DNA of 4,083 nucleotides from a virus (lineage: Duplodnaviria; Heunggongvirae; Uroviricota; Caudoviricetes), in IMG/VR virus record IMGVR_UViG_2606217102_000012. The stretch is one strand, 5' to 3'. The translations under genes and the position numbers were made by a program. The notes beneath the pieces were generated by a model. That model was not told where the DNA came from. It made no database searches and was given only the letters and a program-made list of their open reading frames with translations. Shown piece after piece: positions 1,722 through 4,083 of the stretch. Every line of letters begins with the position of its first letter. The stretch's first letter is position 1.

Positions 1722-2009
1722 ATGAAAAATAAAAATTCTGGCTTTACTGCCAGCGGCCCCGCTCGGCCTGAAATCCGCCCCGGCGATATTTTCCGGGATA
1801 ACTATGGCGGCACGGTAACGATAAAAGGCGTGGCAGAACGGCGCATCACTTACCGCCGTGATGGCTACGAATATGACTGCGTGATGCCTGTTTATCAGTT
1901 CCGGCGTGATTTCACGCTGGTGGGCCATCGTAAAGCCGTAAATCAGAAACGTGCAGCAAGTCATATCCGCAAAATTCGTGAAATGCTGGTCGCAGGGGGT
2001 AAAAAATGA
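1722..2009 (+). CDS. hypothetical basic protein (95 aa), translationally coupled to the downstream helicase gene
   Basis: ATG 1722 begins 6 nt after the upstream stop; its stop TGA (2007-2009) overlaps the ATG of the rep gene (2006-2008) in ATGA. Product MKNKNSGFTASGPARPEIRPGDIFRDNYGGTVTIKGVAERRITYRRDGYEYDCVMPVYQFRRDFTLVGHRKAVNQKRAASHIRKIREMLVAGGKK. No family recognised. Confidence 0.55.
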   Translation: MKNKNSGFTASGPARPEIRPGDIFRDNYGGTVTIKGVAERRITYRRDGYEYDCVMPVYQFRRDFTLVGHRKAVNQKRAASHIRKIREMLVAGGKK

Positions 2010-3412
2010 AACTGGCACCGAACGTAAAACTGTTACCGAAAGATAAACACACTGAGGCGGTTATTTTTGCGGGTGATAATGCTCACTCCTTTGCAGAACA
2101 TTACATGATTGCACAGGCCAAAAAAGCAGGCGATCCCATCCCTCCGGTTTACCTGGGCCGTTATCAGTTAAGCGAACTGGACAACCTGCAGATTGTTGAT
2201 GAGGGGCGATACAGGGTAACGGTGATACGCGCCGGAAATATTGACGAAGCGCAGCTGTTAACCATAGCGACAAAACTGGCGATCGCCGGAGTCCAGGAAG
2301 CGCGGCTGCTTTCTGAAAACTTCGAATTACTGGAGAAATGGACCGACCAGCTTCCACGGCTACGGGAGACATGGGAGAGAGGGGAAAGCCTGATCATGAA
2401 CGGAGGAAAACAAAAAATCACGCTACCGATTTCATGGGGTTCTGAGGGATTCGACGCGCAGCAAAGCTACGTAATTAAGGGGCTTATTCCGGCTGAATCA
2501 TTATGCAGCACCTACGGGGCCAGCGGTTCTTATAAATCGTTCCTGGCTATTTCCTGGTCGTGCCATGTTGCCACAGGTATGGCATGGGGAGGCCGCAGGG
2601 TAAGTAAGGGCGCGGTTATCTATATCGCTGGCGAAGGCAGTATGGGCGTAAAACGCCGCGTTAAGGCGTGGGAGATAACCCACGACAAGGTGGTTACGGA
2701 TTTGTGCATCGTTAACGCGCCTGTCTTCCCTGCATCGCCTGACTATGTGGAGCAGGTTATCAGGACCGCCGGATTAGTGCAGGACAGAACGGGCGAAAGG
2801 GTGCGGATGATTGTCATTGACACGCTGGCCCGTTGCTTTGGTGGTCATGATGAAAATGACTCCCGCGACATGGGGGCGTTTATCCAGGGGTGTGACGCGA
2901 TAAAGCAGGCCACGGGGGCCACGGTTCTGGTTGTGCATCATTCCGGCAAGGATGAGACGAAAGGGGCGCGGGGTTCCAGTGCATTCCGTGCGGCGCTTGA
3001 TGCTGAGTTCCGAATCAGTCGGGAACATTCAGAGGCTACGGCGCTGGTTGCAGCATGTACGAAGATGAAGGACGCGGAGGAGCCAAAAGAAAGCGCCTAC
3101 GACCTTAAGAGCGTGGAGGTATTTACGGATCCTGAGGGTGAAGAAATCGTGTCCATGGTGGTGATTGACGTTCCCCGCGCCCCTGCTGAACTGGAGCGCA
3201 TAGAGGAGGCCGGGAACAAGACGGAAAATCACACGGCTTTATGGGGTTGTATCCGGTCACGTATACAGCATGGTGATAAATGCACGATCCCGCTGCTACG
3301 TGATGACATGAAAAAGCTGGGATATGACACAAAACACCTTAAACGATGGTTAGCCAAACTGGAAAAAGACGGCGTGATTTGCGTCGATGGGGATGATGTT
3401 CACCCACTGTAA
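2006..3412 (+). CDS. RepA-like RecA-fold (AAA_25-type) ATPase / replicative helicase-initiator of the element (468 aa)
   Basis: Long ORF with SD AGGGGG (1994-1999) 6 nt before the ATG. P-loop-like motif YGASGSYKSFLAI; Walker B / helicase motif RMIVIDTLARCF followed by HDENDSRDM; motif TVLVVHHSGKDETKGARGSSAFRAALDAEFRI typical of RepA/DnaB-like RecA-fold helicases. N-terminal ~150 aa and C-terminal ~90 aa regions (...DDMKKLGYDTKHLKRWLAKLEKDGVI..., possibly winged-helix) are unassigned. Iteron array begins at its stop codon. Confidence 0.85.
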   Translation: MKLAPNVKLLPKDKHTEAVIFAGDNAHSFAEHYMIAQAKKAGDPIPPVYLGRYQLSELDNLQIVDEGRYRVTVIRAGNIDEAQLLTIATKLAIAGVQEARLLSENFELLEKWTDQLPRLRETWERGESLIMNGGKQKITLPISWGSEGFDAQQSYVIKGLIPAESLCSTYGASGSYKSFLAISWSCHVATGMAWGGRRVSKGAVIYIAGEGSMGVKRRVKAWEITHDKVVTDLCIVNAPVFPASPDYVEQVIRTAGLVQDRTGERVRMIVIDTLARCFGGHDENDSRDMGAFIQGCDAIKQATGATVLVVHHSGKDETKGARGSSAFRAALDAEFRISREHSEATALVAACTKMKDAEEPKESAYDLKSVEVFTDPEGEEIVSMVVIDVPRAPAELERIEEAGNKTENHTALWGCIRSRIQHGDKCTIPLLRDDMKKLGYDTKHLKRWLAKLEKDGVICVDGDDVHPL

Positions 3413-3612
3413 AAAGTGGGCGTTAAAAGTGGGAATAGTGGGTAATTTAACTGGAATTTAACAAAATCGCCCACTTTCCCACGTGTATACATCCCAAAAA
3501 GTGGGCACTAAAAAAATTCTTATGAAACAGTACGATATAAAACCACAAAATCCCAGGTGGGACGAAGTGGGAAACCATGAAAAGTGGGTAGAAAAAGTGG
3601 GCGCAGGTGGGC
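3403..3612. repeat. iteron array, candidate origin of replication (ori) of the element
   Basis: Direct copies of (A)AGTGGG ending at 3420, 3433, 3442, 3505, 3571, 3588 and 3601, plus AGGTGGG variants ending at 3561 and 3611. Inverted copies CCCACT at 3403-3408 and 3470-3475, and CCCAC at 3478-3482. Two clusters (3403-3505 and 3555-3612) flank an AT-rich ~45-bp segment (3506-3550). AATTTAAC occurs twice (3444-3451, 3455-3462). Placement directly 3' of the helicase gene matches the rep-ori layout of SaPI/PICI-type elements. Confidence 0.7.
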
Positions 3613-3614
3613 GC

Positions 3615-3866
3615 ATGACCAGAAAAACCAGAGATAAGACAACACCAAAATATCGCGCATTAGACATGACAGAGCACGCCTTAAAGGTGGCAATCAGAAC
3701 GATAGACCGCCACGCCGGAGAAGGATACGCGAAAGCACATCCCGAACTGATAAGCGCATTCATGATCACGGCGGCGGCAAATTTTGCCACACTGACAGAA
3801 CGGGAGATTGCCGAAGCGGAACAGGTGACAACCATCAACGTTAAAACCGGAGAGCAGACAGCATGA
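3615..3866 (+). CDS. hypothetical protein (83 aa); start uncertain
   Basis: ATG 3615 preceded by AGGTGG (3605-3610, itself an iteron variant) with 4-nt spacing; stop TGA 3864-3866 overlaps the next ATG (3863) in ATGA. Product MTRKTRDKTTPKYRALDMTEHALKVAIRTIDRHAGEGYAKAHPELISAFMITAAANFATLTEREIAEAEQVTTINVKTGEQTA. The track's start at 3483 is a GTG and would make the iterons coding, which is judged unlikely. Confidence 0.45.
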   Translation: MTRKTRDKTTPKYRALDMTEHALKVAIRTIDRHAGEGYAKAHPELISAFMITAAANFATLTEREIAEAEQVTTINVKTGEQTA

Positions 3867-4083
3867 CAGCACAGATAGCGGCTTACGGGCGGCTGGTGGC
3901 TGACCCGCAGCTAAAGACCACCAGCAAAGGGACACAAATGGCGATGGCGAGTATGGCGGTTCCCCTGCCATGCAGCCAGGCAGATGACGGAACGGCGACG
4001 ATGTGGTTATCTGTCCTGGCGTTTGGCAGACAGGCCGACGCACTGGCAAAACACCACAAAGGCGAACTGGTGAGCGTGGCGGG
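3863..4083 (+). CDS. SSB-like OB-fold single-stranded DNA-binding protein, N-terminal part (3' end outside window)
   Basis: ATG 3863 with GGAGAG (3849-3854) upstream; open to the window end. Product MTAQIAAYGRLVADPQLKTTSKGTQMAMASMAVPLPCSQADDGTATMWLSVLAFGRQADALAKHHKGELVSVAG. It aligns by eye with the SSB N-terminus (E. coli SSB [29 protein letters not shown] ... [30 protein letters not shown]): G-x-L-x-x-DP-x-h-x-x-T-x-x-G, a W-containing strand, F-G-x-x-A-x-x-h-x-x-h-x-KG-x-x-V-x-h-x-G. Confidence 0.6.
   Translation, partial: MTAQIAAYGRLVADPQLKTTSKGTQMAMASMAVPLPCSQADDGTATMWLSVLAFGRQADALAKHHKGELVSVA

What the first reader, a model, noticed from the sequence alone, without database searches (positions are those of the whole stretch)
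3483..3866. Small ORF whose likely Shine-Dalgarno is itself an iteron variant; its start codon is ambiguous
The six-frame ORF starts at GTG 3483 and would translate the iterons into repeated K-V-G tripeptides, which looks like an artefact of the repeat. The more plausible start, ATG 3615, uses the last iteron variant AGGTGG (3605-3610) as its ribosome-binding site. That would couple expression of this gene, and of the translationally coupled SSB-like gene, to initiator occupancy of the origin.
Basis: inference. Interest (0 to 1): 0.4.

Follow-up and report, generated by a model that had tools for sequence, protein, structure and literature searches.

The report
Satellite origin's last repeat doubles as ribosome site
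The small gene starts at ATG 3615, as public annotation already has it; everything upstream in that reading frame is the non-coding replication origin of a phage-satellite island, whose last repeat also serves as the gene's ribosome-binding site, an ordinary by-product of tight packing and not a shown regulatory switch.

Summary
The region 3403-3613 carries 12 RGTGGG repeats, against about 4 expected in the whole window.

The window is a PICI-type phage-satellite island of E. coli. It reads RepA-family helicase, then origin, then an 83-aa protein, then SSB.

Six lines of evidence put the start at ATG 3615:
- RefSeq annotates that start.
- The PHROG profile and distant homologues begin there (median N-terminal offset 0).
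- Sister origins have in-frame stops 1-2 codons upstream, or 25 codons upstream with no ATG in between.
- GTG 3483 is CTG in relatives and lies inside a conserved origin core.
- Substitutions in 3483-3614 show no codon periodicity (24/19/22), unlike the gene (11/15/27).
- GTG 3483 and ATG 3522 have no Shine-Dalgarno sequence.

The terminal repeat is a plausible Shine-Dalgarno (-6.4 kcal/mol). All four RepA-type origin variants take their SD from repeat sequence.

The proposed coupling to initiator occupancy is unsupported. The same gene follows three unrelated origin types with ordinary, non-repeat SDs. The initiator is expected to bind DNA, whereas an SD acts in RNA. This is an ordinary finding of low interest.

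The parts
2006..3412 (+). RepA-family helicase (replication initiator), 468 aa
   Evidence: Pfam AAA_25 at E 6.8e-43. phrog_2850 matches full length. RefSeq names it 'helicase RepA family protein'.
3403..3442 (.). Left repeat set of the origin: one inverted copy inside the end of rep (3403-3408) and three direct copies (3415-3420, 3428-3433, 3437-3442)
   Evidence: The same layout follows the rep stop in RepA-type loci of many Enterobacterales.
3469..3506 (.). Origin core: two inverted repeats (GCCCACTTTCCCAC, 3469-3482), the palindromic CACGTGTATACA that contains GTG 3483, then a direct repeat (3497-3506)
   Evidence: The arrangement inverted repeat, TATA(TA), direct repeat is conserved in Xenorhabdus, Pectobacterium, Kosakonia, Leclercia and others. 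GTG 3483 is CTG in L002-L005.
3507..3553 (.). A+T-rich spacer, the probable melting region; contains the in-frame ATG 3522
   Evidence: GC is 0.35-0.39 here. PICI origins have two repeat sets flanking an A+T-rich region (PMC6092414). ATG 3522 has no SD (-2.9 kcal/mol).
3554..3613 (+). Right repeat set: five direct copies (cores at 3556, 3566, 3583, 3596, 3606)
   Evidence: In sister origins the repeat cores are far more conserved than the spacers (8/66 against 61/136 variable sites, p = 3e-6).
3605..3613 (+). Terminal repeat AGGTGGGCG, whose AGGTGG is the Shine-Dalgarno for ATG 3615
   Evidence: Anti-SD duplex of -6.4 kcal/mol. GTGGGCGCA is repeated 10 nt upstream. A terminal 'aGGTGxGG' repeat ends RepA-type origins in other genera even when no gene follows.
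3615..3866 (+). Small gene, 83 aa, helical, function unknown (phrog_1231)
   Evidence: RefSeq CDS has the same start. phrog_1231 matches at E 7e-50 over residues 1-82. Homologue N-termini coincide. Third-position substitution bias is 11/15/27. AlphaFold2 model has pLDDT 83 and two long helices.
3863..3866 (+). ATGA stop/start overlap between the small gene and ssb
   Evidence: Sequence. The same 4-nt overlap is annotated in 11 of the 12 related loci with an intact ssb gene.
3863..4083 (+). 5' part of the SSB gene; it runs off the end of the window
   Evidence: Pfam SSB at E 3.1e-8. RefSeq names it 'single-stranded DNA-binding protein'.

Best explanation
Positions 3403-3613 are the replication origin of a PICI-type phage-satellite island. 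The origin lies directly after its RepA-family helicase gene. It has a left set of GTGGG repeats, a core made of inverted repeat, TATA and direct repeat, an A+T-rich spacer, and a right set of five direct repeats. The ORF opening at GTG 3483 is a chance open frame across the right half of this origin. The real gene starts at ATG 3615 and encodes an 83-aa helical protein of unknown function. That protein belongs to a family found in the replication or early modules of integrative elements. The gene module (small gene plus ssb) is joined flush to the end of the origin. The G-rich, transcription-oriented terminal repeat (AGGTGGGCG) therefore also serves, in the mRNA, as the Shine-Dalgarno. The ssb gene is then translated by ATGA termination-reinitiation coupling.

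Shown: the anatomy, the conservation, the start position and the SD complementarity.
Inferred: co-transcription with rep, actual use of the SD, and Rep binding to the terminal repeat.

The overlap is best read as sequence economy, not as a regulatory device.
For: 1. RefSeq/PGAP annotates the CDS at the equivalent of 3615-3866 and at the equivalent ATG in all four sister loci with RepA-type origins.
2. phrog_1231 is an 83-position profile. It aligns to residues 1-82 of the 83-aa form and to residues 45-126 of the 127-aa form.
3. For 70 distant homologues, the difference in N-terminal length from the 83-aa form has median 0 and IQR -2 to +2. Only 3% are long enough to match a start at 3483.
4. 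In-frame stops lie 1 codon (L002), 2 codons (L003, L004) and 25 codons (L005) upstream of the ATG in sister origins. There is a 1-nt indel just before the ATG.
5. Variable sites by codon position: rep 28/15/63 (p = 3e-8); 3483-3614 24/19/22 (p = 0.75); 3615-3863 11/15/27 (p = 0.02). Variable-site density falls from 50% to 22% at 3615 (p = 3e-8).
6. Anti-SD duplex energies: +1.9 at 3483, -2.9 at 3522, +0.5 at 3666 and -6.4 at 3615.
7. In elements with other origin types, DNA homology to the window begins at 3605-3623.
8. The origin architecture matches the published PICI origin (PMC6092414) and recurs across Enterobacterales.
9. No promoter-like site and no plus-strand terminator lie in 3200-4083.
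Against: There are no expression data of any kind. The SD strength of -6.4 kcal/mol is only in the top 17% or so of all window positions.

GTG 3567 and GTG 3597 are in frame and have equally good repeat-derived SD-like sequences (-6.4 and -6.0). Minor initiation there cannot be excluded for this particular allele, where the frame is open. Some gene callers pick 99-, 114- or 127-aa forms.

Whether Rep really binds the terminal, slightly divergent repeat is not shown.
Confidence: 0.85

Rival explanations
1. The long form is real: translation starts at GTG 3483 or ATG 3522 and reads through the right half of the origin, giving a 127- or 114-aa protein with a repeat-encoded N-terminal extension.
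For: The frame is open for 51 codons upstream in the window and in L001. Some database entries carry 114-, 127- or 142-aa forms, so the frame is also open in a few diverged alleles.
Against: - Neither start has an SD (+1.9 and -2.9 kcal/mol).
- GTG 3483 is CTG in L002-L005 and lies in the conserved origin core.
- The frame is closed 1-2 codons before the ATG in L002-L004.
- Substitutions show no codon periodicity.
- Only the repeat cores are conserved, not the residues between them.
- The PHROG profile and distant homologues lack the extension.
Confidence: 0.03
2. Initiator occupancy of the origin controls expression of the small gene and ssb. The route would be Rep bound to the repeat array blocking RNA polymerase that reads through from rep, or some other effect on the leader.
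For: The gene has no promoter-like site of its own, so transcription must cross 12 repeats. In all four RepA-type variants the array reaches to within 0-4 nt of the ATG. A Kluyvera element places an unrelated gene 2 nt after its last repeat.
Against: - No data bear on it.
- Rep would be expected to bind duplex DNA, whereas the SD acts in RNA, so the SD overlap itself cannot transmit occupancy.
- The same gene follows three other origin types with non-repeat SDs 30-55 nt beyond the last repeat.
- Other RepA-type origins have the next gene 24-26 nt downstream with its own GGAG.
- A roadblock would act equally without any overlap.
Confidence: 0.12
3. AGGTGG 3605-3610 is simply the gene module's own SD and not a functional repeat. 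Its likeness to the repeats is coincidence, or a micro-homology at the recombination joint.
For: L008 has a DUF927-type initiator and unrelated TAACCCGCA repeats, yet carries GAGGTGG-caa-ATGACCAGAA at the same place. Its homology to the window begins at 3605.
Against: - GTGGGCGCA is repeated exactly 10 nt upstream, and CAGGTGGG recurs at 3554.
- The position aligns with the terminal repeat of the sister origins, and its sequence tracks their repeat type.
- RepA-type origins in other genera end with 'aGGTGAGGA' or 'aGGTGGGGGA' even where no gene follows.
Confidence: 0.15

Closest known systems
PICI / SaPI replication origin (Fillol-Salom et al. 2018, PMC6092414; Ubeda et al. for SaPIs, the latter from my own knowledge)
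   Same: The origin lies immediately 3' of the initiator gene. Two sets of short direct repeats flank an A+T-rich region. The element is an integrase/AlpA island at a tRNA gene with capsid and small-terminase genes.
   Different: The initiator here is a RepA-family (AAA_25) helicase without a primase domain. A central unit of inverted repeat, TATA and direct repeat is conserved. The right repeat set runs into the ribosome-binding site of the next gene. Replication function was not tested here.
Autoregulation in iteron plasmids (P1 RepA, R6K pi, pSC101 RepA; from my own knowledge)
   Same: Initiator-binding repeats overlap an expression signal of a neighbouring gene.
   Different: In those plasmids the repeats overlap a promoter, which is a DNA signal, and the regulated gene is the initiator itself. 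Here no promoter is detected, the overlapped signal is an SD, which is an RNA signal, and the downstream gene is not the initiator.
phrog_1231 and the wider 'GEGYAKxHPELIxAFMxTAAxDF' family of small proteins
   Same: Full-length match at E 7e-50. More than 500 relatives were found, typically 70-110 aa. The three contexts examined are elements carrying an integrase (two of three), AlpA, or a primase or helicase.
   Different: No member has a known function, a Pfam family or a solved structure. Pairing with ssb is specific to the Escherichia/Shigella elements.
ATGA stop/start overlap with termination-reinitiation coupling (Huber et al. 2019, PMC6728339)
   Same: There is a 4-nt ATGA overlap between the small gene and ssb, conserved across loci.
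   Different: Coupling was not measured. The ssb gene also has its own GGAG SD 10 nt upstream (-6.6 kcal/mol).

Membership tests
PICI-type replication origin | Located immediately 3' of the replication initiator gene | tested here: met
   The repeats start inside the last codons of rep (3403) and fill the 202-nt gap up to the next gene.
PICI-type replication origin | [quoted passage not shown] | tested here: met
   Left set 3403-3442, right set 3554-3613, and an A+T-rich stretch 3507-3553 with GC 0.35-0.39. Definition taken from PMC6092414.
PICI-type replication origin | Supports initiator-dependent autonomous replication | not testable with these tools
   This needs a rep-ori plasmid maintenance assay, as was done for EcCICFT073.
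PICI-type phage satellite | Integrase and AlpA, a replication module, a few morphogenesis or packaging genes, no full phage gene set, and a specific attachment site | tested here: met
   In L001 the island sits between tRNA-Pro and yejO. It reads int, HTH, Icd-like, DUF4222, RepA, small gene, SSB, major capsid, decoration, TerS. Whether it is a capsid-forming PICI in the strict sense was not tested; no portal, protease or large terminase is annotated in L001.
phrog_1231 small protein | Full-length profile match | tested here: met
   E 7e-50, with residues 1-82 aligned to profile positions 1-82 of 83.
Canonical SD-led start at ATG 3615 | Complementarity to the 16S 3' end a few bases upstream, and a start codon conserved in relatives | tested here: met
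   -6.4 kcal/mol with AGGUGG. ATG is present in all RepA-type and DUF927-type loci examined. Homologue N-termini coincide.
Iteron-mediated control of gene expression (P1 / R6K / pSC101 type) | Initiator-binding repeats overlap a promoter | tested here: not met
   No sigma-70-like site in 3200-4083 on either strand. This was a consensus scan only.
Iteron-mediated control of gene expression (P1 / R6K / pSC101 type) | Expression of the downstream gene responds to initiator level | not testable with these tools
   This needs reporter fusions with and without Rep.
Translational coupling by overlap | Stop and start codons overlap (ATGA) in co-oriented genes | tested here: met
   3863-3866. Conserved in 11 of the 12 related loci with an intact ssb gene.

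The most novel reading that the evidence does not exclude
In RepA-type satellite origins, the transcription-oriented G-rich repeats are kept SD-like because they do two jobs: they bind Rep on DNA, and they act as ribosome-binding or standby sites in the read-through mRNA. Rep loading on the array would then gate read-through from the replication genes into the ssb and morphogenesis genes. Late-gene expression would follow origin occupancy or firing.
Probability: 0.08. Interest if true: 0.5.

Novelty: already known. Interest (0 to 1): 0.15.

Why it matters
The result settles an annotation question: the 83-aa form is right, and the 99- to 142-aa forms in several databases are over-extensions into the origin. 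It also shows how repeat arrays rich in GTG and G-runs create false starts and false SDs for gene callers.

The flush joint between origin and gene module, and the swapping of that module behind four unrelated initiator/origin types, illustrates modular recombination in phage satellites. None of this changes current understanding of how they work.

Tried and rejected
- **RNA structure that might hide or present the SD.** One fold of 3400-3660 pairs the SD with the inverted repeats at 3468-3482 (z = -3.35). A slightly different window instead puts AGGUGG in the loop of a GCGC/GCGC hairpin, with P(unpaired) 0.52, which is no different from the sequence average. No pattern is consistent across loci. 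Because repeats in both orientations co-vary anyway, no inference about RNA-level selection is possible. Dropped.
- **Rfam scan of 3300-3900.** Only a chance match, far below threshold.
- **Function of the 83-aa protein.** No Pfam match. No sequence relative among solved structures. The AlphaFold2 model is a two-helix hairpin with no Foldseek match in the PDB. Neighbours of distant homologues place it in the early or replication modules of integrative elements and say nothing more.
- **Phage collection.** No near match to the window.
- **Internal ATG 3666 as the start.** Rejected. It has no SD (+0.5 kcal/mol), and the Met is Leu or Ile in many homologues.
- **Similarity between window GTGTATACATC and the start region ATGTGCATACATC of the primase-type loci.** Noted, but not distinguishable from chance.

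Full report
**What is in the sequence**

The six-frame ORF 3483-3866 (127 aa, GTG start) exists. ATG 3615 is in frame, AGGTGG lies at 3605-3610 with four bases (GCGC) before the ATG, and the stop overlaps the next start as ATGA at 3863-3866.

The repeats are far above chance. AGTGGG occurs 10 times against 1.7 expected, and no shuffle of 200 reaches that. RGTGGG occurs 14 times against 3.9 expected, with 12 of the 14 in 3403-3611. The last unit shares GTGGGCGCA with its neighbour 10 nt upstream, and CAGGTGGG also occurs at 3554. It is therefore a member of the array and not just a look-alike.

**Where the window comes from**

The window matches E. coli chromosomes at up to 97.6% identity and matches no deposited phage. 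In strain 504239 the element lies between tRNA-Pro and yejO. Its gene order is integrase, HTH (AlpA-like), YlcI/YnfO, Icd-like, two small genes, DUF4222, RepA-family helicase, an 83-aa hypothetical protein, SSB, major capsid, head decoration, HTH and small terminase. This is a PICI-type phage satellite.

The helicase (2006-3412) carries AAA_25. RefSeq places the small CDS at exactly the equivalent of 3615-3866.

**The origin**

For PICIs, the region immediately 3' of the initiator gene is the replication origin. It has two iteron sets flanking an A+T-rich region, and this was tested experimentally for EcCICFT073 (PMC6092414). The window fits:
- left set at 3403-3442;
- A+T-rich stretches (GC 0.35-0.39);
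- right set at 3554-3613.

I fetched 80 relatives of the helicase from other Enterobacterales. Wherever repeats could be recognised, the layout after the rep stop was the same. It begins with three direct repeats, followed by an inverted repeat, a TATA(TA) centre and a direct repeat. A spacer of about 45 nt comes next, and three to five direct repeats close the array about 185-200 nt after the stop.

GTG 3483 lies in that conserved centre (cacGTGTATACA). The terminal repeat in other genera is often 'aGGTGAGGA' or 'aGGTGGGGGA', even where no gene follows. This argues that the window's AGGTGGGCG is a genuine origin element.

**Which start codon**

Several independent tests agree on ATG 3615.

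1. *Profile.* phrog_1231 has 83 positions. It aligns to residues 1-82 of the short form and to residues 45-126 of the long form.
2. *Distant homologues.* An exhaustive HMMER search found 136 relatives sharing a GEGYAKxHPELIxAFMxTAAxDF core. For 70 of them, the N-terminal length differs from the 83-aa form by a median of 0 (IQR -2 to +2). Only 3% are long enough to fit a start at 3483. In the alignment their initiator methionines line up with M at 3615.
3. *Sister origins.* These are four loci with the same architecture but repeats GTGGGGAG or GTGAGG (L002-L005). They have in-frame stops 1, 2, 2 and 25 codons upstream of the ATG. They read CTG where the window has GTG 3483, and they carry a 1-nt indel just before the ATG.
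4. *Substitution pattern.* Variable sites by codon position are as follows.

| Region | Pos 1 / 2 / 3 | p |
|---|---|---|
| rep 3' end | 28 / 15 / 63 | 3e-8 |
| 3483-3614 | 24 / 19 / 22 | 0.75 |
| 3615-3863 | 11 / 15 / 27 | 0.02 |

   The share of variable sites falls from 50% to 22% at 3615 (p = 3e-8). Within the intergenic region, conservation follows the repeat cores and not codons: 8/66 variable sites in cores against 61/136 outside (p = 3e-6).
5. *Ribosome binding.* Duplex energy with the 16S 3' end is given below. The background mean is -3.4, and 17% of window positions reach -6.

| Candidate start | kcal/mol |
|---|---|
| GTG 3483 | +1.9 |
| ATG 3522 | -2.9 |
| ATG 3666 | +0.5 |
| ATG 3615 | -6.4 |

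6. *Module boundary.* In E. coli elements with other origins, DNA similarity to the window begins at 3605-3623.

One caveat applies. The in-frame GTG 3567 and GTG 3597 also have repeat-derived SD-like sequences (-6.4 and -6.0). Some gene callers choose them (99-aa forms). They are not conserved as coding sequence, but minor use in this allele cannot be excluded.

**Is the SD a repeat?**

In the window, yes. AGGTGG is the first six bases of the terminal repeat.

In the other RepA-type variants the SD-like element is also repeat sequence, but it belongs to the penultimate unit: GGGGAG or GAGAGG, with a 7-8 nt spacer and -6.5 to -8.0 kcal/mol. The array reaches to within 0-4 nt of the ATG in all of them. 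A Kluyvera element places an unrelated membrane-protein gene 2 nt after its last repeat.

The overlap is not general. Five other RepA-type elements start the next gene 24-25 nt after the last repeat, and one more does so at 26 nt. The three of these read in full carry their own GGAG.

More important, the same small-gene/ssb module follows three unrelated initiator/origin types:

| Initiator | Repeats | SD of the small gene |
|---|---|---|
| DNA primase family | GGTAGA | GAGGGGG |
| DUF927 | TAACCCGCA | GAGGTGG |
| Primase-like DNA-binding protein | GGTGAACAG | GAGG |

In all three the SD is not a repeat and lies 30-55 nt beyond the last one.

**Mechanism**

The best reading is sequence economy. 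The right-hand repeats are G-rich and point in the direction of transcription, so any gene joined flush to the origin inherits an SD-like leader.

No promoter-like site and no plus-strand terminator were found in 3200-4083. The small gene is therefore probably read from the rep transcript; this is an inference. The ssb gene overlaps by ATGA, an arrangement known to give termination-reinitiation coupling (PMC6728339). The overlap is conserved in 11 of the 12 related loci with an intact ssb gene.

The overlap cannot transmit occupancy, because a Rep protein would be expected to bind duplex DNA while the SD works in RNA. A transcriptional roadblock is conceivable but would not need the overlap. 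RNA folding gave no robust or conserved structure around the SD, and Rfam gave nothing.

**The protein**

The 83-aa product has no Pfam family and no relative among solved structures. It is predicted as two long helices (pLDDT 83) with no fold match. Distant members lie next to AlpA, DUF927 or AAA_25 helicase genes, and two of the three contexts also carry an integrase. The hosts include Nitrosomonas, Pseudomonas and marine bacteria. The only conclusion supported is an accessory role in the early or replication module of integrative elements.

**Verdict**

The origin is of a published kind. The repeat/SD overlap is real, lineage-specific and most simply a packing by-product. The regulatory coupling is unsupported. 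Interest is low.

Noticed in passing
L016 2520-2950 (Xenorhabdus beddingii): Two complete RepA-type origin units lie in tandem after a single rep gene. They have different repeat sequences (GTGAGGA, then GTGGGGA). The second may be an orphan origin of another specificity.
   Followed up: no
L006 1738-1801 and L009 1738-1801: In primase-type elements, RefSeq starts the small gene at MTKMRRD (SD -5.7 kcal/mol). A conserved GAGGGGG-N7-9-ATG lies 63 nt upstream in frame (-11.8 kcal/mol). It is the start used in L007 and L012, so the annotated start is probably too far downstream.
   Followed up: partly
L011 1780-2150 (E. coli 83972): A 1-nt deletion in the N-terminal codons of the small gene makes the annotation fall back to a TTG start. 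The ssb gene there is truncated, so this looks like a decaying copy of the island.
   Followed up: no
window 3615-3866 and loci L002-L015: The small-gene/ssb module is found behind four unrelated initiator/origin types: RepA helicase, DNA primase family, DUF927 and primase-like DNA-binding protein. The homology break lies within about 10 nt of the start codon, which makes a clean example of module swapping.
   Followed up: partly
P0125 (2461 aa): A very long protein matches the 83-aa query in 14 separate stretches around the 'HPEL' motif. Its sequence looks like repeated globin-like units, so this is probably motif-level similarity only.
   Followed up: no
window 3567-3599: The repeats contain in-frame GTG codons preceded by SD-like repeat sequence. 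This produces pseudo-starts that several gene callers accept (99-aa, 114-aa and 127-aa database entries).
   Followed up: yes
L038 2700-2720 (Kluyvera genomosp. 1): An unrelated 119-aa membrane-protein gene starts 2 nt after the last origin repeat. This is an independent case of a gene start abutting the repeat array.
   Followed up: partly
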